Shown here piece after piece: positions 1 to 5,655 of a stretch of DNA of 5,655 bases (positions are counted from its first letter, which is position 1; each line of letters starts with the position of its first letter). Source of the DNA: a virus. The stretch lies in IMG/VR virus record IMGVR_UViG_3300045988_183881, positions 1 through 5,655 of that record. One strand, 5' to 3'. The notes under the pieces are model-generated. The model did no database searches. It saw only the letters and a program-made list of their open reading frames with translations, and was not told where the DNA came from. A program made the position numbers and the translations under genes.

Positions 1-99
1 ATTTTTTTTTAGATCACAAAACCAGTGTCTAAAAAAAAACGTAGCCGTTGACAAAATCAGGATTTTATATACACGGGCGAACAAGCACAGCTTAGGCAA
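1..99. repeat. Terminal direct repeat, identical to 5557-5655. Most simply the overlap of a circularly assembled contig, giving a unique length of 5556 bp.
   Basis: Base-by-base comparison of 1-99 with 5557-5655 shows 99/99 identity. 99 is a common assembler k-mer size (inference). Confidence 0.85.
2..39. repeat. Long AT-rich inverted repeat T9AGA ... TCTA9 with an inner CAC/GTG extension. It forms a 15-bp stem with a one-nucleotide bulge.
   Basis: Bases 2-13 (TTTTTTTTTAGA) are the exact reverse complement of 28-39 (TCTAAAAAAAAA). CAC 15-17 pairs with GTG 25-27, leaving loop 18-24. The T9 also serves as the U-tract of the plus-strand terminator at 5523-5566. Confidence 0.6.
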
Positions 100-106
100 G
101 CTGTGC
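85..106. other. Perfect 9-bp stem / 4-nt loop hairpin (GCACAGCTT aggc AAGCTGTGC), flanked by direct repeats CGnACAAGC.
   Basis: Reverse complement of 85-93 equals 98-106. ACAAGC occurs at 81-86 and 112-117. Neither strand has a T-tract after the stem, so it is not a typical terminator. Confidence 0.5.
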
Positions 107-119
107 TCCGCACAAGCTA

Positions 120-320
120 TCACTGGTCAAACCGGAGTAAATCCTCCGCCCGGATGCCTAAACACTTCGAAAGACTAGCCGCATATTCCAAATTTAATTT
201 AGAAAATAAACGCTGGTGCTGTTCAAGTGCCCTAATAGTACGAACTGGAACACCGGACGCATTCGCAAGGCTAACTTGCGTAAATTTTTTACTTTCTCTC
301 AATTCAACAAAATTACACAT
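120..320 (-). CDS. XRE/Cro-C1 family helix-turn-helix transcriptional regulator, 66 aa.
   Basis: Translation contains a classic HTH_XRE signature: KFTQVSLANASGVPVRTIRALEQ. ATG at 320 is preceded by AAGGAGA with 8-nt spacing. TGA stop at 120-122. Confidence 0.8.
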   Translation of the reverse strand: MCNFVELRESKKFTQVSLANASGVPVRTIRALEQHQRLFSKLNLEYAASLSKCLGIRAEDLLRFDQ

Positions 321-338
321 AAAAATATCTCCTTAAAT

Positions 339-368
339 AAAACCGTGGCGCATTTACACCACGGTTTT
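339..368. terminator. Hairpin with a 10-bp stem and 10-nt loop (AAAACCGTGG / CCACGGTTTT), flanked by T-tracts on both strands. It sits between the Zot-like gene and the XRE gene.
   Basis: Reverse complement of 339-348 equals 359-368. Plus strand is followed by ATTTTATTTTTA; minus sense is followed by TTATTT and then the XRE RBS. It is also a dsDNA palindrome carrying AACCGTG / CACGGTT half-sites. Confidence 0.45.
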
Positions 369-396
369 ATTTTATTTTTAATCATTATCACGTCAA
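369..396 (-). promoter_or_regulatory. Sigma70-like promoter for the XRE gene: TTGACG, 16-nt spacer, TAAAAT on the minus strand.
   Basis: Minus-strand reading of 396-369 is TTGACGtgataatgattaaaaaTAAAAT. The predicted start falls inside the hairpin arm at about 360-362. Confidence 0.4.
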
Positions 397-425: not shown

Positions 426-480
426 CAACGCCTGGCATCATGGCGGGGACCCCGTGCCCCACCCATTCAACCAGGCGTTG
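426..480. other. GC-rich extended hairpin overlapping the last codons of the Zot-like gene. Outer stem is 10 bp (426-435 with 471-480). Inner GC stem is 442-448 with 457-463, with one mismatch.
   Basis: Reverse complement of CAACGCCTGG (426-435) equals CCAGGCGTTG (471-480). Inner GGCGGGG/CCCCACC pairs 6 of 7. Local GC is about 65% in a genome of roughly 37% GC (estimated by eye). Confidence 0.5.
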
Positions 481-1087
481 TAAATATGTTATAAGTATCA
501 TATAAACTATAGTATTTTTTATGAGCCTTAAAGAACTGACTACCTACCTTTTCTTTCATTGGGTACCATATTTTAACCGATACAAATAGATTGCCTATAC
601 TAATCATGGACAATATTTTTCCAATCAATCCATAATTAGATACTTTTCTATGTACAAGTTCATATTCTATTAATGAGCGTATTTGTCTATCAATCATCCG
701 GTCAAACTGACTCACCAGTACAATATCATATCCGTATTTCCTATGCTGCGTAAAAAAGGATAACCACTCATTACGACCAGTACACCCCCAATCCCTCGAG
801 TTAAATAGTATCTGACATTCATCAATCACTAATAATATACTACCCTCTTTTGGTCTTTTATTTTTAAATAACTTTTGTGAGTATTCTATAAGTCTTTGGG
901 GCGTCAATTCCAAGTTATCAATATAGAAAAACGAATCATAGAATCTTTTAGCCTTTATCTTTTTATAGTTCACATGAACATCAAAATTGCAGATTGTTGG
1001 ACGCCCGGAACGGATTCTATAATACAACTTTTCCGCCAGATGTAATGATTTACCGCTACCCGGCGTACCTGAATACAATGTTATCAA
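467..1087 (-). CDS. Zot / inovirus pI-like morphogenesis ATPase (P-loop NTPase), 206 aa, with an apparent TTG start.
   Basis: N-terminal MITLYSGTPGSGKS is the Zot/pI-type Walker A. LLVIDEC is a Walker B. RBS GAGGTGA lies 7 nt upstream of TTG at 1087; the codon at 1085-1087 is TTG, not ATG. The gene is last in the pIII-pVI-pI order. A possible weak TM segment is GLIGKILSMISIGNLFVSV. Confidence 0.85.
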   Translation of the reverse strand: MITLYSGTPGSGKSLHLAEKLYYRIRSGRPTICNFDVHVNYKKIKAKRFYDSFFYIDNLELTPQRLIEYSQKLFKNKRPKEGSILLVIDECQILFNSRDWGCTGRNEWLSFFTQHRKYGYDIVLVSQFDRMIDRQIRSLIEYELVHRKVSNYGLIGKILSMISIGNLFVSVKIWYPMKEKVGSQFFKAHKKYYSLYDTYNIFTTPG

Positions 1088-3026: not shown

Positions 3027-3191
3027 TTACGCTTTACCGGTCAGCTTTTTAAACACTTTGATGCCGAATGTAACAACCATTACAGCACCGACAACGCCTA
3101 ATGCAACAGGTAATACATTAGCAATTGCAGTATTGCAATTGGTAGCAACAGTTGTAAACGCTTCTGTTAATGCAGTCTGAATACCTTCCAT
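3027..3191 (-). CDS. Major coat protein, pVIII-like, 54 aa: MEGIQTALTEAFTTVATNCNTAIANVLPVALGVVGAVMVVTFGIKVFKKLTGKA.
   Basis: Not in the ORF track because it is under 60 aa. Translated by hand from the reverse complement. It has an amphipathic acidic N-terminus, a hydrophobic core and a basic C-terminus. The genome's strongest RBS, GAGGAGGG, lies 7 nt upstream of ATG at 3191. It is followed by the terminator. Confidence 0.75.
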   Translation of the reverse strand: MEGIQTALTEAFTTVATNCNTAIANVLPVALGVVGAVMVVTFGIKVFKKLTGKA

Positions 3192-3755: not shown

Positions 3756-3920
3756 TTACTGCTCCTCTCCTAATTCAATAATATCTTTTTTGTACTTTTC
3801 CAATACTGCGGCAATCTCCGGTATAACGACCGCCTCAATAAATACCGCCTGCGATTGAGATTTTGAAGTTACAACAACCTCAAATGCCGCCATTTTTTCT
3901 TTTTCTTCACTGTTTGCCAT
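3756..3920 (-). CDS. Hypothetical acidic helical 54-aa protein: MANSEEKEKMAAFEVVVTSKSQSQAVFIEAVVIPEIAAVLEKYKKDIIELGEEQ. The track's longer 77-aa form starts at 3989, inside rep.
   Basis: ATG at 3920 has GGAG 12 nt upstream and overlaps the last four codons of rep in another frame. A third candidate start at 3893 lies just after the rep stop. Confidence 0.35.
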   Translation of the reverse strand: MANSEEKEKMAAFEVVVTSKSQSQAVFIEAVVIPEIAAVLEKYKKDIIELGEEQ

Positions 3921-4851
3921 TCTCTTTCTTTTCTCCTTTTTGACATTTTTTAAAATATTTATAGTTAACATCCAAGTAACCGCTAACATCCTTTTGATAC
4001 TCTAAATCAGCACCGTAAGAATCAGCTACTTCTTGAATAAAACTATCTACTTCATCCGAGTCTATTAATGCAGTAAATGTTTTCGGTTTTGGAATCGACT
4101 TTGATACAAAATACCGTTGTTTTCCCGGAGTAACAGCACACAAATCTTTTGTTATATATTTAGTTATATAATTAGATACTTTATATGTATCAGTAACTTC
4201 TGTAGCAGTTGAAAAGCCTAGTTTCCAATCATTCAAGTTATAGACAATTTTTCCGTTATATCTTTTTCCGGAATCAGTAAACGTTAAGCCAATAGTATTA
4301 CATAACAATCCGTGTATATGCCAAGCACCATCCTCATGCTGTTCAGGAACAAGCAGATATAATAAGTCATTTGCTTTACGCAGTTTACAATGATTAATCC
4401 ATACGCGGACTCTTTTCATACATATTAAAAAATCGTAACGGTTTTCTATCTTATCTGGCGAATAGGTCAACGTAATAAAATATTCCCATTTACATTGTCT
4501 AGCGTACATATATAATGCCGAACGTGTACGATTGAGAGAACTATAGAGAGAATGCTCTTTCTTACGTTCAATAGCTTTTTCATCAATATCCGTATAAACA
4601 CGTTGAATCTTTTCAGTAAACGGATTATAACAATATTCCGCATCATCAATACGAGGAATAAAACGACCTTGTCCGGTCTTTTCATCAATAACATAAGATG
4701 CAAACCGCCACGCTAATGCATCAGCATTTTTATCAATCATATCAGCACGATAAGAACTTTCACCGTCCAACATTGTATAAACACCTTGTTTATACGTTGC
4801 AACCTCTAACTGACCATTAGCATATTCAGTAATTTTCACATTGTAAGCCAT
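3907..4851 (-). CDS. Rolling-circle replication initiator (HUH endonuclease, superfamily I with two catalytic Tyr, phiX174 gpA / inovirus gII-like), 314 aa.
   Basis: Motif I is YFITLTY, motif II is WHIHGLL (HUH) and motif III is YITKYITK (YxxKYxxK). They are spaced about 50 aa apart. ATG at 4851 is preceded by AGGGA. Confidence 0.85.
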   Translation of the reverse strand: MAYNVKITEYANGQLEVATYKQGVYTMLDGESSYRADMIDKNADALAWRFASYVIDEKTGQGRFIPRIDDAEYCYNPFTEKIQRVYTDIDEKAIERKKEHSLYSSLNRTRSALYMYARQCKWEYFITLTYSPDKIENRYDFLICMKRVRVWINHCKLRKANDLLYLLVPEQHEDGAWHIHGLLCNTIGLTFTDSGKRYNGKIVYNLNDWKLGFSTATEVTDTYKVSNYITKYITKDLCAVTPGKQRYFVSKSIPKPKTFTALIDSDEVDSFIQEVADSYGADLEYQKDVSGYLDVNYKYFKKCQKGEKKENGKQ

Positions 4852-4874: not shown

Positions 4875-4902
4875 GTGTTGCCATAGTCAAGTAGGGCAAC
4901 AC
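4875..4902. other. Hairpin with a perfect 8-bp stem (GTGTTGCC / GGCAACAC) and 12-nt loop, lying 24-51 nt upstream of the rep start codon.
   Basis: Reverse complement of 4875-4882 equals 4895-4902. There is no flanking T-tract. It lies in the rep leader next to the RBS. Confidence 0.5.
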
Positions 4903-4942
4903 CCTATCACCCGGAACTAACTATTAAAATTGGGTATAAAAA

Positions 4943-4988
4943 AAATAGATAGTTCATAACCTTTCTTTTTGTTATAAACTATCTATTT
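4943..4988 (-). terminator. Extended hairpin plus U8 tract in the minus sense. It is a candidate attenuator/terminator in the rep leader.
   Basis: Outer arms AAATAGATAGTT (4943-4954) and AACTATCTATTT (4977-4988) are perfect. In minus-sense RNA the inner TATAAC/GTTATG pairs with one G-U, giving an 18-bp stem and 10-nt loop. It is followed in the minus sense by TTTTTTTTATA, the complement of 4932-4942. Confidence 0.5.
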
Positions 4989-5049
4989 ATTTTTGTATTG
5001 CACATTAATCTATTCAGCAAAACACCCATTTTGCAAATAGTTTGTAACC

Positions 5050-5086: not shown

Positions 5087-5118
5087 ACAAACTACCATTC
5101 CGGCGTTGCCTACATTTT

Positions 5119-5143
5119 CGCAAAACTACGAGCGAGTTTTACG
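5119..5143. other. Imperfect hairpin (CGCAAAACT acgagcg AGTTTTACG), 8 of 9 bp paired.
   Basis: One C-A mismatch. It contains CTACGA, which recurs at 5256-5261. Confidence 0.3.
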
Positions 5144-5163
5144 AATAGATAGCCTATACCCTA

Positions 5164-5192
5164 TATATACCATACTAACACACGGAAGTCAA
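5164..5192 (-). promoter_or_regulatory. Strong sigma70-like promoter on the minus strand: TTGACT, 17-nt spacer, TATATA, with a TGn extended -10. It is directed toward rep.
   Basis: The complement of 5187-5192 is TTGACT. The complement of 5164-5169 is TATATA, preceded by TGg. The spacer is exactly 17 nt, and it contains CACACGG (5179-5185), which resembles the 5368-5374 half-site. Confidence 0.45.
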
Positions 5193-5321
5193 CTTTTTTT
5201 TATCTAGCACACATAAAACAGCGTGTAAACTCTTTTATTCGCAGATAAAAACAATCTACGAATAAAACTTTTGTTTCACAAAAGCAAGGAGTTGACGCAC
5301 TTTTTTATATGCGCAAAGGTA

Positions 5322-5343
5322 GGGAAAATCCGGGGATTTTCCC
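5322..5343. promoter_or_regulatory. Perfect palindrome GGGAAAATCC gg GGATTTTCCC: 10-bp arms with a 2-bp centre. It could be an operator-type site or a hairpin with a 9-bp stem and 4-nt loop.
   Basis: The reverse complement of 5322-5331 equals 5334-5343. Confidence 0.5.
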
Positions 5344-5350
5344 ATAATAG

Positions 5351-5374
5351 AACCGTGTGCATCTGCACACGGTT
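5351..5374. promoter_or_regulatory. Perfect palindrome AACCGTGTGCA tc TGCACACGGTT: 11-bp arms with a 2-bp centre. It shares the AACCGTG / CACGGTT half-site with the hairpin at 339-368.
   Basis: The reverse complement of 5351-5361 equals 5364-5374. It lies 8 nt from the previous palindrome, between divergent promoters. Confidence 0.5.
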
Positions 5375-5414
5375 GAAACTCATCATATAATTATTGGTTA
5401 CTCGCTACCAGTAA

Positions 5415-5443
5415 TTGACCACCACAAGAGACAATTGTATTAT
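5415..5443 (+). promoter_or_regulatory. Sigma70-like promoter on the plus strand: TTGACC, 17-nt spacer, TATTAT. It is the only convincing plus-strand transcription signal.
   Basis: TTGACC at 5415-5420, TATTAT at 5438-5443, with an exact 17-nt spacer. Confidence 0.45.
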
Positions 5444-5449
5444 CTTTTT

Positions 5450-5566
5450 TGGATGCAAGCTATCCCACATATCAGAAAAAATTGTTGCTAGCTCCTGATG
5501 GGCGAGCTACTTCTTACATAAAAACCGAATTTAGTAAACGGTCAACCATTCGGTTGATTTTTTTTT
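5450..5566 (+). ncRNA. Candidate noncoding RNA of about 110 nt on the plus strand, running from the 5415-5443 promoter to the 5523-5566 terminator. Alternatively it is the complementary-strand primer-RNA region of the origin.
   Basis: No ORF longer than 12 codons and no SD within it. It is bounded by the promoter and the hairpin plus T9. Confidence 0.3.
5523..5566 (+). terminator. Intrinsic terminator on the plus strand. It is a hairpin followed by T9, using either stem AACCGAAT/ATTCGGTT or the shorter CAACC attc GGTTG. It is weaker in the minus sense (UUUUUAU).
   Basis: Reverse complement of 5523-5530 equals 5548-5555. 5543-5547 pairs with 5552-5556. T9 runs 5558-5566, which equals window positions 2-10. 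Confidence 0.55.
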
Positions 5567-5655
5567 AGATCACAAAACCAGTGTCTAAAAAAAAACGTAG
5601 CCGTTGACAAAATCAGGATTTTATATACACGGGCGAACAAGCACAGCTTAGGCAA
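5557..5655. repeat. Second copy of the 99-bp terminal repeat (duplicate of 1-99).
   Basis: Identical to 1-99. Confidence 0.85.

What the first reader, a model, noticed from the sequence alone, without database searches (positions are those of the whole stretch)
5164..5443. Back-to-back divergent promoters flanking two different perfect palindromes
A minus-strand promoter TTGACT-17-TATATA with TGn (5164-5192) and a plus-strand promoter TTGACC-17-TATTAT (5415-5443) face away from each other. Between them, 8 bp apart, lie two perfect palindromes with 2-bp centres: GGGAAAATCC/GGATTTTCCC and AACCGTGTGCA/TGCACACGGTT. This is the layout of a genetic switch or operator cluster. In a filamentous phage it could equally be the pair of ssDNA hairpins that form the complementary-strand origin. 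Both readings are interesting and can be told apart.
Basis: partly seen in the sequence, partly recalled or inferred. Interest (0 to 1): 0.6.

Follow-up and report, generated by a model that had tools for sequence, protein, structure and literature searches.

The report
Hairpin cluster in filamentous phage intergenic region
The two perfect palindromes are real, conserved hairpin-forming sequences in the non-coding control region of a small filamentous phage of human-gut bacteria; they most likely act when the DNA is single-stranded and not as repressor binding sites, which is an ordinary feature for this kind of phage.

Summary
The window is a complete circular 5,556-nt inovirus genome (99-nt terminal repeat) with all genes on the minus strand. 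Perfect palindromes of this size are about 100 times more frequent than chance and all lie in the 824-nt non-coding region. In about 20 relatives (Rep 83-93% identical), pal2 keeps its pairing through compensatory changes. Pal1 is nearly invariant, with a YNCG loop on the coding strand.

Both belong to a roughly 210-nt multi-hairpin domain (5204-5417). Its largest hairpin covaries and has G·T wobbles only on the coding (virion-sense) strand.

The genetic-switch reading fails:
- The only HTH gene is missing from most relatives that keep the palindromes.
- The palindromes do not overlap either proposed promoter.
- The plus-strand promoter's -35 is not conserved.

The minus-strand promoter is conserved. 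A dif-like attP lies between it and rep, so every prophage separates the two.

Best reading (0.45): virion-strand ssDNA signals, most likely the complementary-strand origin. Main rival (0.3): pal2 is an intrinsic terminator that overlaps a conserved plus-strand promoter. This is an ordinary feature; the function remains unproven.

The parts
5351..5374 (-). pal2: perfect palindrome AACCGTGTGCA-NN-TGCACACGGTT, the apical stem of an extended hairpin
   Evidence: Conserved in relatives with compensatory A-T to G-C (L064/L077) and C-G to T-A (L002, L074) changes and a GA/TC centre flip. Flagged as terminator-like on the rep-sense strand in the circular relative L082.
5344..5350 (-). 7-nt spacer between the palindromes (rep-sense CTATTAT in the window; TTATTAT in 14 of 15 aligned sequences). 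It is the T-rich tail of pal2 and the 3' half of pal2's lower stem.
   Evidence: 98% identity; pairs with 5380-5386 in the consensus fold.
5380..5386 (-). 5' half of the pal2 lower stem (rep-sense ATGATGA; ATAATGA in most relatives)
   Evidence: Consensus fold, columns 74-80 with 110-116. One invariant G·U and one variable G·U on the rep-sense strand.
5322..5343 (-). pal1: GGGAAAATC-[YNCG]-GATTTTCCC hairpin, inside the most conserved block of the non-coding region (5315-5350)
   Evidence: Eight of 9 pairs never vary. Loops are TTCG, TCCG, CCCG or CACG on the rep-sense strand. Identity 95-98%. Motif found only in this phage lineage.
5207..5314 (-). Large three-way branched hairpin: basal arms 5207-5235 / 5286-5314 enclosing hairpins 5233-5267 and about 5270-5285
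   Evidence: Eight pairs with compensatory change. 67 G·T cells against 0 A·C cells on the rep-sense strand. The basal stems are lost when the plus strand is folded.
5390..5415 (.). Hairpin H3 (arms 5390-5398 / 5407-5415; 8-nt loop containing TAGCGA on the rep-sense strand)
   Evidence: The strand of folding is ambiguous: 8 of 13 sequences have a T·G wobble on the plus strand. TAGCGW occurs at chance frequency in the genome.
5164..5203 (-). P(-): A-tract (5193-5203), -35 TTGACT (5192..5187), 17-nt spacer, TGn, -10 TATATA (5169..5164). Candidate main promoter, reading towards rep.
   Evidence: The -35 and A-tract are kept in all aligned relatives and in all seven deletion variants. Not listed by the scan because the last -10 base is A.
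5415..5443 (+).
   Evidence: 10/12. The -35 is conserved in only 3 of 13 aligned relatives and the spacer length varies. Not flagged in L082.
5364..5391 (+). Alternative plus-strand promoter-like site TGCACA-16-TATAAT; its -35 lies in the right arm of pal2
   Evidence: Flagged in the window and in the circular relative L082. TATAAT is kept in all 13 aligned sequences.
5540..5568 (+). Plus-strand intrinsic terminator-like hairpin plus T9 run
   Evidence: The equivalent site is flagged in L082. Relatives have different hairpins but always a T-run.
5115..5147 (.). attP: dif-like palindrome TTTTCGCAAAA-CTACGAGCGAG-TTTTACGAATA, lying between P(-) and rep
   Evidence: Prophage junctions in L001 and about 20 other loci. 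Near-empty host site in L101.

Best explanation
The two palindromes are hairpin-forming elements of a roughly 210-nt structured domain (window 5204-5417) in the non-coding region of a circular inovirus. On the virion-sense strand (window minus strand) the domain reads, 5' to 3': H3, pal2 with its lower stem, pal1, and a three-way large hairpin.

I infer that the domain works while the genome is single-stranded. Its most likely role is the complementary (minus)-strand origin, where host enzymes prime conversion of the incoming or displaced virion strand into the double-stranded replicative form. A packaging signal is the second possibility of the same kind.

Shown:
- The elements are real, far beyond chance and conserved.
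- pal2 and the large hairpin keep pairing through compensatory changes.
- The large hairpin is strand-specific for the virion-sense strand.
- The domain is dispensable for persistence as a prophage.

Inferred:
- The virion strand is the coding strand, as in all characterised inoviruses.
- The domain lies just 5' of the probable nick site, a hairpin at 4875-4902 with the invariant loop TACTTGACTAT. It would therefore be the last part of the strand displaced during rolling-circle replication, which is where single-strand origins of rolling-circle replicons sit.
- pal1 and its flanks are constrained at the sequence level, so something recognises them specifically.

The minus-strand promoter next to the domain is probably the real promoter for the rep operon. 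The dif-like attP (5115-5147) lies between it and rep, so promoter and operon are joined only in the circular form.
For: - Circular inovirus with Zot, Gp8-type coat and REP_ORF2-G2P Rep, all genes on the minus strand.
- Palindrome excess: 3 observed against 0.008 expected in the non-coding region.
- ssDNA fold of 5159-5457, minus strand: -49.9 kcal/mol, z = -7.4. pal1 and pal2 form separate hairpins flanked by H3 and the large hairpin.
- Consensus fold of 13 relatives: -76.6 kcal/mol on the rep-sense strand against -60.6 on the opposite strand.
- Pairing statistics: 99% of cells paired, 9 pairs with changes on both sides, covariation 0.138 against 0.089 in shuffles and 0.02-0.05 in slid controls.
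- Large hairpin: 67 G·T cells and 0 A·C cells on the rep-sense strand.
- pal2 lower stem: an invariant G·U on the rep-sense strand.
- pal1 with its flanks is the most conserved block, 95-98% identical, while the large hairpin drops to 71% between clades and compensates.
- Both circular, unintegrated genomes (the window and L082) keep the whole domain.
- Seven prophage copies carry deletions with different end points (L068 and L085 may share one event). Every one removes at least half of pal1 and the left base of the large hairpin, and every one keeps P(-).
- pal1 and pal2 occur with all three alternative accessory-gene modules, so they go with the conserved replication and morphogenesis core and not with a regulator.
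- The likely nick-site hairpin is elsewhere, at 4875-4902. Its loop is invariant in 23 sequences, its stem covaries, and the same 10-mer lies 40-50 nt upstream of rep in two Rep lineages of 33-36% identity.
Against: - No direct evidence of origin or packaging activity exists.
- pal1 shows no covariation, because it hardly varies.
- pal2 gives conflicting wobble evidence: G·T on the rep-sense strand in L064b, T·G on the plus strand in L143. The strand assignment therefore rests on the neighbouring hairpin.
- The known ssoA origin signature is not met. The RSB element is absent, and TAGCGA in the H3 loop is at chance frequency.
- No convincing promoter mimic was found in the stems, unlike the Ff minus origin.
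- pal1's loops (UUCG, UCCG, CCCG, CACG, closed by C-G) fit the stable RNA tetraloop pattern YNMG. That hints at an RNA-level role.
- pal2 with its T-rich tail fits an intrinsic terminator in 14 of 15 aligned sequences.
- Two deletion variants (L068, L085) lack the whole domain with near-identical break points but are integrated in opposite orientations. If they share one deletion event, a phage without the domain was still mobile.
Confidence: 0.45

Rival explanations
1. Transcription signals in the double-stranded form. pal2 is the stem of a rho-independent terminator that stops rep-sense transcription from running round the circle into the main promoter. pal1 is a second, very stable RNA hairpin (cUUCGg-type) that backs up termination or protects the 3' end. 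The right arm of pal2 also supplies the -35 of a conserved plus-strand promoter (TGCACA-16-TATAAT). That promoter would give a 110-170-nt RNA ending at the plus-strand terminator at 5540-5568.
For: - pal2 is followed by TTTTATTAT in 14 of 15 aligned sequences.
- The scan flags pal2 as terminator-like on the rep-sense strand in the circular relative L082: 10 pairs, 6 G-C, loop of 4.
- The RNA fold of pal2 is -17.8 to -19.5 kcal/mol, comparable with the coat-gene terminator at -23.2.
- A terminator-like hairpin just upstream of the XRE gene (356..331) shares AACCGTG...CACGGTTTTATT with pal2.
- pal1 loops are YNCG on the rep-sense strand only.
- TGCACA-16-TATAAT is flagged in both the window and L082, and TATAAT is invariant.
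- The plus-strand terminator is flagged in both.
- The high sequence-level conservation of the block fits recognition by RNA polymerase.
Against: - In the window itself the T-tract is interrupted (TTCTATTAT), and the scan does not flag pal2.
- In most relatives (module b) the gene just upstream in the circle is on the opposite strand, and no rep-sense promoter-like site was found between it and pal2. It is therefore unclear which transcript pal2 would terminate.
- pal1 has no U-tract.
- The large hairpin next to the palindromes is strand-specific for the rep-sense strand yet lies upstream of P(-). That is easier to explain for ssDNA than for RNA.
- The -35 TGCACA matches only 4 of 6 consensus positions and degrades to GGCACA or TACACA in some relatives.
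- A transcript from that promoter would start inside H3.
Confidence: 0.3
2. Operator cluster or genetic switch. Each palindrome is the binding site of a dimeric DNA-binding protein (phage or host) that controls the divergent promoters.
For: - Perfect dyad symmetry and strong sequence-level conservation of pal1 and its flanks.
- pal2 overlaps the -35 of the conserved plus-strand promoter-like site, and pal1 is centred about 65 bp upstream of its expected start.
- Compensatory change in pal2 is also what symmetric half-sites would show.
Against: - The only HTH protein (XRE) is absent from about 18 of 20 relatives that keep the palindromes.
- No other recognisable DNA-binding regulator was found in the conserved core. 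The 54-aa ORF gave only an uninformative single-helix model.
- The two palindromes are unrelated to each other and have no further copies.
- Variation at the centre of pal1 is asymmetric: positions 1-2 vary and positions 3-4 are always CG. That fits a hairpin loop better than a dyad spacer.
- No LexA-type box is present.
Confidence: 0.1
3. Part of the plus-strand (double-strand) origin: Rep binding or nicking sites.
For: - Rep is the one sequence-specific DNA protein conserved in all relatives.
- The recurrent loss of pal1 in prophages could reflect selection for copies that cannot replicate.
Against: - A much better nick-site candidate exists 450 nt away, directly upstream of rep. It is a covarying hairpin with an invariant 11-nt loop, TACTTGACTAT, which resembles the CTTGAT nick cores I recall for phiX174 and pC194. 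The loop 10-mer is shared with distant Rep lineages.
- pal1 and pal2 have loops of only 2-4 nt, too small to present a nick site.
- The pal1 motif is confined to the close lineage.
Confidence: 0.05

Closest known systems
Intergenic region of Ff phages (f1/M13/fd): packaging hairpin A, minus-origin hairpins B and C, plus-origin hairpins D and E
   Same: - A several-hundred-nt non-coding region between the last morphogenesis gene and the replication gene, packed with hairpins on the virion (coding-sense) strand.
- A candidate nick site in the loop of a short hairpin next to the rep gene.
- The structured domain lies 5' of that nick site.
- Rep carries the same Pfam domain as Ff gene II protein (PF23343).
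   Different: - No sequence similarity.
- The hairpins are short perfect palindromes (9-11 bp) plus one three-way structure, not two long imperfect hairpins.
- No -35/-10 mimic is recognisable in the stems.
- An attachment site and a promoter sit between the structured domain and the nick site.
- The host is a Gram-positive gut bacterium.
Single-strand origins (ssoA type) of rolling-circle plasmids of Bacillota (pMV158/pLS1, pE194)
   Same: - A structured region of about 200 nt on the displaced strand, a few hundred nt upstream of the nick site.
- A TAGCGA hexamer, matching CS-6 (TAGCGT/A), in a hairpin loop on the correct strand.
   Different: - The RSB element (TTATGCCGAGAAAATTT; PMC4598088) is absent even with 3 mismatches.
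- The CS-6-like hexamer occurs at chance frequency and varies among relatives (TAGTGA, TGGTGA).
- The architecture is several short hairpins, not one long one.
Rho-independent terminators and bidirectional terminator-promoter junctions
   Same: pal2 has a 10-11-bp G+C-rich stem, a 4-nt effective loop and a T-rich tail. An A-rich 5' flank pairs with the tail.
   Different: The T-tract is interrupted in the window. No transcription unit clearly ends there in most relatives. pal1 has no T-tract.
Xer-exploiting integrative elements (IMEX) such as CTXphi, VGJphi and TLCphi
   Same: - A small filamentous phage without an integrase.
- It is integrated at an 11-6-11 palindromic host site, where local GC skew and gene orientation switch.
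- The locus holds inverted tail-to-tail copies and old remnants.
- The central regions of attP and attB are not homologous, as in CTXphi.
   Different: - This concerns the neighbouring att site, not the palindromes.
- The arms (TATTCGCAAAA) differ from the known XerCD, XerS and XerH sites.
- The attP centre is 10-11 bp.
- The recombinase is unknown.

Membership tests
Filamentous-phage minus-strand origin (Ff type) | Lies in the non-coding intergenic region and folds into hairpins on the virion (coding-sense) strand | tested here: met
   Fold z = -7.4. The consensus fold is 16 kcal/mol better on the rep-sense strand. G·T wobbles occur on that strand only in the adjoining large hairpin. For pal1 and pal2 themselves the strand cannot be told.
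Filamentous-phage minus-strand origin (Ff type) | Hairpin stems present a -35/-10-like promoter mimic that RNA polymerase uses to make the primer | tested here: inconclusive
   By inspection only. TTTACA-17-TAGA(TA/AT/AC) lies on the 3' arm of the large hairpin, and TGCACA lies in the pal2 stem. Their spacing in the folded form does not mimic a promoter.
Filamentous-phage minus-strand origin (Ff type) | Supports rifampicin-sensitive priming of ssDNA-to-replicative-form conversion | not testable with these tools
   Needs an in vitro or in vivo replication assay.
ssoA single-strand origin | Conserved RSB element (TTATGCCGAGAAAATTT) | tested here: not met
   No match with up to 3 mismatches on either strand. 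Consensus taken from PMC4598088.
ssoA single-strand origin | CS-6 (TAGCGT/A) in the terminal loop of the hairpin | tested here: inconclusive
   TAGCGA lies in the H3 loop at 5402-5407 on the minus strand. Genome-wide there are 4 matches against 3.9 expected. Relatives vary: TAGTGA, TGGTGA.
Rho-independent terminator (pal2, rep-sense strand) | G+C-rich stem, short loop, then a U-rich tract | tested here: met
   Met in 14 of 15 aligned sequences and flagged in L082. In the window the tail is CTATTATG, and the site is not flagged.
Rho-independent terminator (pal2, rep-sense strand) | Lies at the end of a transcription unit on that strand; transcripts end there | tested here: inconclusive
   In the window it lies about 300 nt downstream of the XRE stop. 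In most relatives the preceding gene is on the other strand. No transcript data are available.
Operator cluster of a phage genetic switch (CI/Cro type) | Cognate repressor gene adjacent to, and conserved together with, the operators | tested here: not met
   The XRE gene is not adjacent. It is present in only the window and L073, while pal1 and pal2 occur with all three alternative modules.
Operator cluster of a phage genetic switch (CI/Cro type) | Several related operator sites overlapping the core promoters | tested here: not met
   The two palindromes are unrelated and have no further copies. They lie upstream of both proposed -35 boxes. Only pal2 overlaps the -35 of the alternative site at 5364-5391.
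Sigma-70/SigA promoter (minus-strand promoter 5192..5164) | -35 and -10 hexamers 16-18 nt apart, conserved among relatives | tested here: met
   TTGAC[A/T], 17-18 nt spacer, TATATA, usually with TGn and an upstream A-tract, in all aligned relatives and all deletion variants. The -10 lacks the consensus final T. The start site cannot be tested here.
Sigma-70/SigA promoter (plus-strand promoter 5415-5443) | -35 and -10 hexamers conserved among relatives | tested here: not met
   The -35 is TTGACC in 3 of 13 sequences and otherwise TCTGCC, TCAGCC, TCAACC, TCGACC or TTTACC. The -10 varies (CGTTAT, TGCTAT, GATTAT) and so does the spacer length.

The most novel reading that the evidence does not exclude
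The nearly invariant pal1 block (5315-5350) and its neighbours form a previously undescribed type of complementary-strand origin or packaging signal for integrase-less inoviruses of gut Bacillota. Hosts repeatedly disable these phages by deleting exactly this block. In addition, the phage's main promoter is joined to rep only after excision from a dif-like site, which would make expression depend on circularisation.
Probability: 0.2. Interest if true: 0.55.

Novelty: new member of a known kind. Interest (0 to 1): 0.33.

Why it matters
Cis-acting signals of Gram-positive filamentous phages (origins, packaging signal, attachment site) are essentially uncharacterised, although such phages are common in the human gut. 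This lineage offers three things:
- A defined set of candidate elements with natural deletion variants.
- A candidate nick site shared with distant Rep lineages.
- A dif-like attachment site that splits the main promoter from the replication operon.

These are testable handles for building vectors or for understanding chronic phage carriage. The palindromes themselves are what one expects in an inovirus intergenic region.

Tried and rejected
- XRE operators: rejected. The XRE gene is missing from most relatives that keep both palindromes.
- ssoA membership: rejected. RSB is absent and the CS-6-like hexamer is at chance frequency.
- LexA/SOS box (GAAC-N4-GTTC): none in the non-coding region.
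- Rfam: nothing at gathering thresholds in the window, L001 or L002. Only weak sub-threshold hits in permissive mode.
- tRNA-based attachment site: no tRNA at the junctions.
- Palindromes as widespread motifs: pal1 occurs only in this lineage in IMG/VR. The relaxed 16-base pal2 pattern gave 36 scattered hits that I did not follow up and take to be mostly chance.
- A conserved small regulator in the phage core: Pfam and PHROGs found nothing for the 54/77-aa ORF. A single-sequence AlphaFold model was one long helix and uninformative.
- A promoter for rep between attP and rep: no conserved -35/-10 pair. The invariant TTGACT lies in a hairpin loop with no usable -10.
- Deciding the folded strand from pal1 and pal2 alone: not possible. 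pal1 is invariant, and pal2 has one wobble on each strand.
- Annotated phage records: similarity is limited to the Zot gene of Dulem and bajarodino viruses.
Full report
**What the window is.** The first 99 bases are repeated exactly at the end, so the window is a circular genome of 5,556 nt with 36% G+C. All credible genes are on the minus strand:
- a rolling-circle Rep at 4851..3907 (PF23343 REP_ORF2-G2P; HUH motif HIHGLL and YITKYITK read from the translation);
- several small proteins;
- a Gp8-type major coat protein at 3191..3027;
- a 538-aa adsorption-type protein;
- a Zot/pI-type ATPase at 1087..467;
- a 66-aa XRE-type HTH protein at 320..120.

This is a filamentous phage (inovirus). In all characterised inoviruses the packaged strand has the sense of the mRNAs. 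The virion strand is therefore taken to be the window's minus strand, called "rep-sense" below. The finding lies in the 824-nt non-coding stretch between rep and the XRE gene across the circle junction.

**Checking the observation.** All four elements are present at the stated coordinates.
- The spacer between the palindromes is 7 bp, not 8.
- Perfect palindromes with arms of at least 10 and a loop of at most 4 occur three times in the genome: pal1, pal2 and a third at 84-107. All three are in the non-coding region. Dinucleotide shuffles gave a mean of 0.04 for the genome and 0.008 for the non-coding region.
- Promoter-like hexamer pairs are not enriched: 26 found against 24.4 +/- 4.6 expected. 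The promoters have to be judged by conservation.

**Relatives.** Searching public collections with Rep gave about 25 close relatives (Rep 77-93% identical) from human-gut metagenomes and IMG/VR. More distant relatives (about 40% identity) came from Lachnospiraceae and other Bacillota genomes, so sigma-A-type promoters are a reasonable model. One relative, L082, is also a closed circle with a 127-nt terminal repeat. Nearly all the others are integrated prophages.

**Conservation of the palindromes.**

pal2:
- Pairing is kept in 15 copies from 13 loci that carry the whole domain, and pal2 alone is also kept in L002.
- Compensatory changes occur: A-T to G-C in L064/L077 and C-G to T-A in L002/L074.
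- The 2-nt centre is found as GA or as its reverse complement TC, as expected for loop inversion in a hairpin-forming sequence.
- In the consensus fold pal2 is extended by a 7-bp lower stem (5380-5386 with 5344-5350).

pal1:
- Eight of its 9 pairs never vary.
- Only the central 4 nt vary, and asymmetrically. On the rep-sense strand the centre is TTCG (8 sequences), TCCG, CCCG or CACG. The first two positions vary and the last two are always CG.

The spacer, pal1 and the 7 nt after it (5315-5350) form the most conserved block of the region, 95-98% identical.

**The structural context.** pal1 and pal2 are not isolated. On the rep-sense strand the order is H3 (5415..5390), pal2, pal1, then a 108-nt three-way hairpin (5314..5207), then an A-tract and the minus-strand promoter.
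- As ssDNA, the minus strand of 5159-5457 folds at -49.9 kcal/mol against -24.4 +/- 3.4 for shuffles, z = -7.4. The plus strand gives z = -6.8.
- Across 13 relatives the consensus fold is -76.6 kcal/mol with 80 pairs on the rep-sense strand, against -60.6 kcal/mol with 67 pairs on the other strand.
- With the structure fixed, 99.0% of cells are paired and 9 pairs show changes on both sides. The covariation score is 0.138, against 0.089 in shuffles and 0.02-0.05 in slid controls. Most compensatory events come from one divergent clade (L064/L076/L077), so they represent few independent events.
- The large hairpin has 67 G·T cells and no A·C cells on the rep-sense strand. Its basal stems disappear when the other strand is folded. 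For this hairpin the folded strand is the virion/mRNA-sense strand.
- For pal1 and pal2 themselves the data are silent. pal1 does not vary. pal2 has one terminal G·T on the rep-sense strand (L064b) and one T·G on the plus strand (L143).

**The switch reading.** The gene module between Zot and the non-coding region differs among relatives:
- an XRE gene on the rep-sense strand, in the window and L073 only;
- a 55-aa membrane protein on the opposite strand, in ten loci;
- an 85-123-aa membrane protein, in nine loci.

pal1 and pal2 occur with all three modules, so they are not XRE operators. No other recognisable DNA-binding regulator is encoded in the conserved core. A single-sequence model of the 54-aa ORF downstream of rep was uninformative. 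The palindromes are unrelated to each other, have no other copies, and lie upstream of both proposed -35 boxes. No LexA-type box is present.

A different plus-strand site, TGCACA-16-TATAAT (5364-5391), is conserved. It is flagged in both the window and L082, and its -35 lies in the right arm of pal2. Together with the conserved plus-strand terminator (5540-5568) it could define a 110-170-nt RNA.

**The minus-strand promoter and the attachment site.** TTGAC[A/T], a 17-18-nt spacer and TATATA, usually with TGn and an A-tract immediately upstream, are kept in every relative, including all deletion variants. This is probably a real promoter.

Comparing prophage junctions with a nearly empty host site in L101 shows where the phage recombines.
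- The phage site is the palindrome at 5115-5147. In rep-sense orientation it reads TATTCGTAAAA-CTCGCTCGTAG-TTTTGCGAAAA.
- The host site has 11-6-11 geometry, TATTCGCAAAA-CACAGC-TTTTACGAATA, next to the 3' end of a D-aminoacyl-tRNA deacylase (dtd) gene.
- Phages are found inserted in both orientations.
- In L101, GC skew and gene orientation switch at this site, so it may be the chromosomal dif.
- The attP lies between the promoter and rep. In every prophage the promoter ends up at one end, pointing outwards, and rep at the other end. They are adjacent only in the circular form. This last point is an inference about expression, not a demonstration.

**Where the plus origin probably is.** The hairpin at 4875-4902, 25-50 nt upstream of the rep start, has a covarying stem: GTGTTGCC/GGCAACAC, GTGTCCC/GGGGACAC and GTGTCCT/GAGGACAC. 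Its loop, TACTTGACTAT, is invariant in 23 sequences. The 10-mer ACTTGACTAT also lies 40-50 nt upstream of rep, on the same strand, in two lineages whose Rep is only 33-36% identical. From memory, it resembles the CTTGAT nick cores of phiX174 and pC194 and the loop-embedded nick site of Ff hairpin D. This makes the palindromes unlikely to be the Rep nick site. It also places the structured domain just 5' of the nick, the usual position of a single-strand origin.

**Natural deletions.** Seven prophage copies lack part of the domain: L002, L068, L078, L079, L085, L099a and L103. Their end points differ, often fall inside hairpins, and always remove at least half of pal1 and the left base of the large hairpin (intersection about 5283-5336). 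The promoter and the other hairpins are kept. L068 and L085 may share one event. Both free circular genomes are intact. The domain is therefore dispensable for persistence as a prophage. Whether it is needed for the infectious cycle cannot be told. L068 and L085 have near-identical break points but opposite integration orientations, which may mean that a domain-less phage remained mobile.

**Weighing the explanations.**
- ssDNA-stage role (complementary-strand origin first, packaging signal second), 0.45. It fits the position, the strand-specific neighbouring hairpin, the association with the replication and morphogenesis core, and the dispensability in prophages. It is not an ssoA: RSB is absent, and the CS-6-like TAGCGA in the H3 loop is at chance frequency.
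- Transcriptional signals, 0.3. pal2 plus TTTTATTAT meets terminator criteria in 14 of 15 aligned sequences and is flagged in L082. Its base resembles the terminator-like hairpin upstream of the XRE gene. pal1's YNCG loops fit stable RNA tetraloops. The block's sequence-level conservation would suit a promoter.
- Operators, 0.1.
- Plus origin, 0.05.

The readings are not mutually exclusive. As I recall it, an Ff intergenic hairpin serves both as a packaging signal and as a terminator.

**Novelty.** Hairpin-rich intergenic regions that carry origins and packaging signals are textbook features of filamentous phages. This is a new example in an uncharacterised Gram-positive gut lineage, with no sequence similarity to known elements. 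Interest is moderate to low for the palindromes themselves. It is somewhat higher for the dif-like attP that splits promoter from rep and for the recurrent deletions.

Noticed in passing
window 5115-5147; L001 461-508 and 5920-5968; L101 7330-7452: Dif-like attachment site. The phage palindrome is TTTTCGCAAAA-CTACGAGCGAG-TTTTACGAATA. The host site is 11-6-11, TATTCGCAAAA-CACAGC-TTTTACGAATA, next to the 3' end of dtd. Prophages are inserted in both orientations, sometimes tail to tail (L064; L075/L099 on one contig). The phage has no integrase. GC skew and gene orientation switch at the site in L101. The central regions of attP and attB are not homologous.
   Followed up: partly
window 4875-4902 (loop 4883-4893); L129 23-32; L139 2072-2081: Hairpin with a covarying stem and an invariant loop, TACTTGACTAT, on the coding strand, 25-50 nt upstream of rep. 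The same 10-mer sits in the same position in two Rep lineages of 33-36% identity. It is a candidate Rep nick site (plus origin).
   Followed up: partly
window 4938-4993: A/T-rich 23-bp hairpin flanked by an A-run and a T8-run, lying between the conserved minus-strand promoter and rep. On the coding strand it looks like a terminator or attenuator in the rep leader. In prophages it would also block read-through from dtd.
   Followed up: partly
window 107-394 versus L001 5256-5498, L069 7432-7686 and others: The segment between Zot and the non-coding region is a swappable module: an XRE gene (window, L073), a 55-aa membrane protein on the opposite strand (ten loci), or an 85-123-aa membrane protein together with a different Zot type (nine loci).
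   Followed up: partly
window 331-356 (minus strand): Terminator-like hairpin, AACCGTGG-N10-CCACGGTT followed by TTTATTT, just upstream of the XRE ribosome-binding site. It shares AACCGTG...CACGGTT(T)TATT with pal2. It is conserved with changes in L073.
   Followed up: partly
window 84-107 and 5558-5595 (the latter equals 2-39 of the circle): Two more conserved hairpins. One is a third perfect palindrome, AGCACAGCTT-N4-AAGCTGTGCT, right after the XRE stop; in some relatives it is 12+12 with no spacer. The other has a T9/A9 stem with a covarying inner stem (CAC/GTG to CGC/GCG).
   Followed up: partly
window 5364-5568 (plus strand): Possible small plus-strand transcription unit: TGCACA-16-TATAAT, then hairpins, then an intrinsic terminator with a T9 run. 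The window carries an insertion of about 50 nt (roughly 5462-5510) relative to most relatives. No conserved ORF.
   Followed up: partly
L075 6814-6899: A tRNA-Ser(GCT) gene is inserted in the rep leader of one relative, between the A/T-rich hairpin and the nick-site hairpin. L068 has a different insertion of about 100 nt at the same point.
   Followed up: no
L002, L068, L078, L079, L085, L099 (12265-12640), L103: Seven prophage copies carry deletions or replacements in the hairpin domain, with different end points (L068 and L085 may share one event). All remove at least half of pal1 and the left base of the large hairpin, and all have a full-length rep where it is visible.
   Followed up: partly
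L101 7001-7330; L001 5956-6150: The host locus carries an old truncated rep remnant (about the first 110 codons, or only the first 5) with its upstream hairpin, next to the att site. This shows repeated past integrations.
   Followed up: no
window 5362-5363: The 2-nt centre of pal2 is GA in some relatives and its reverse complement TC in others on the same strand. That is a flip of the hairpin loop and not an ordinary substitution.
   Followed up: partly
L003-L005 (for example L004 117-154 and 299-324): The lineage with 38% Rep identity has its own perfect palindromes upstream of rep: AAAAGGTATCATCGA-N8-TCGATGATACCTTTT and TTTTCGACC-N8-GGTCGAAAA. The architecture may be analogous.
   Followed up: no
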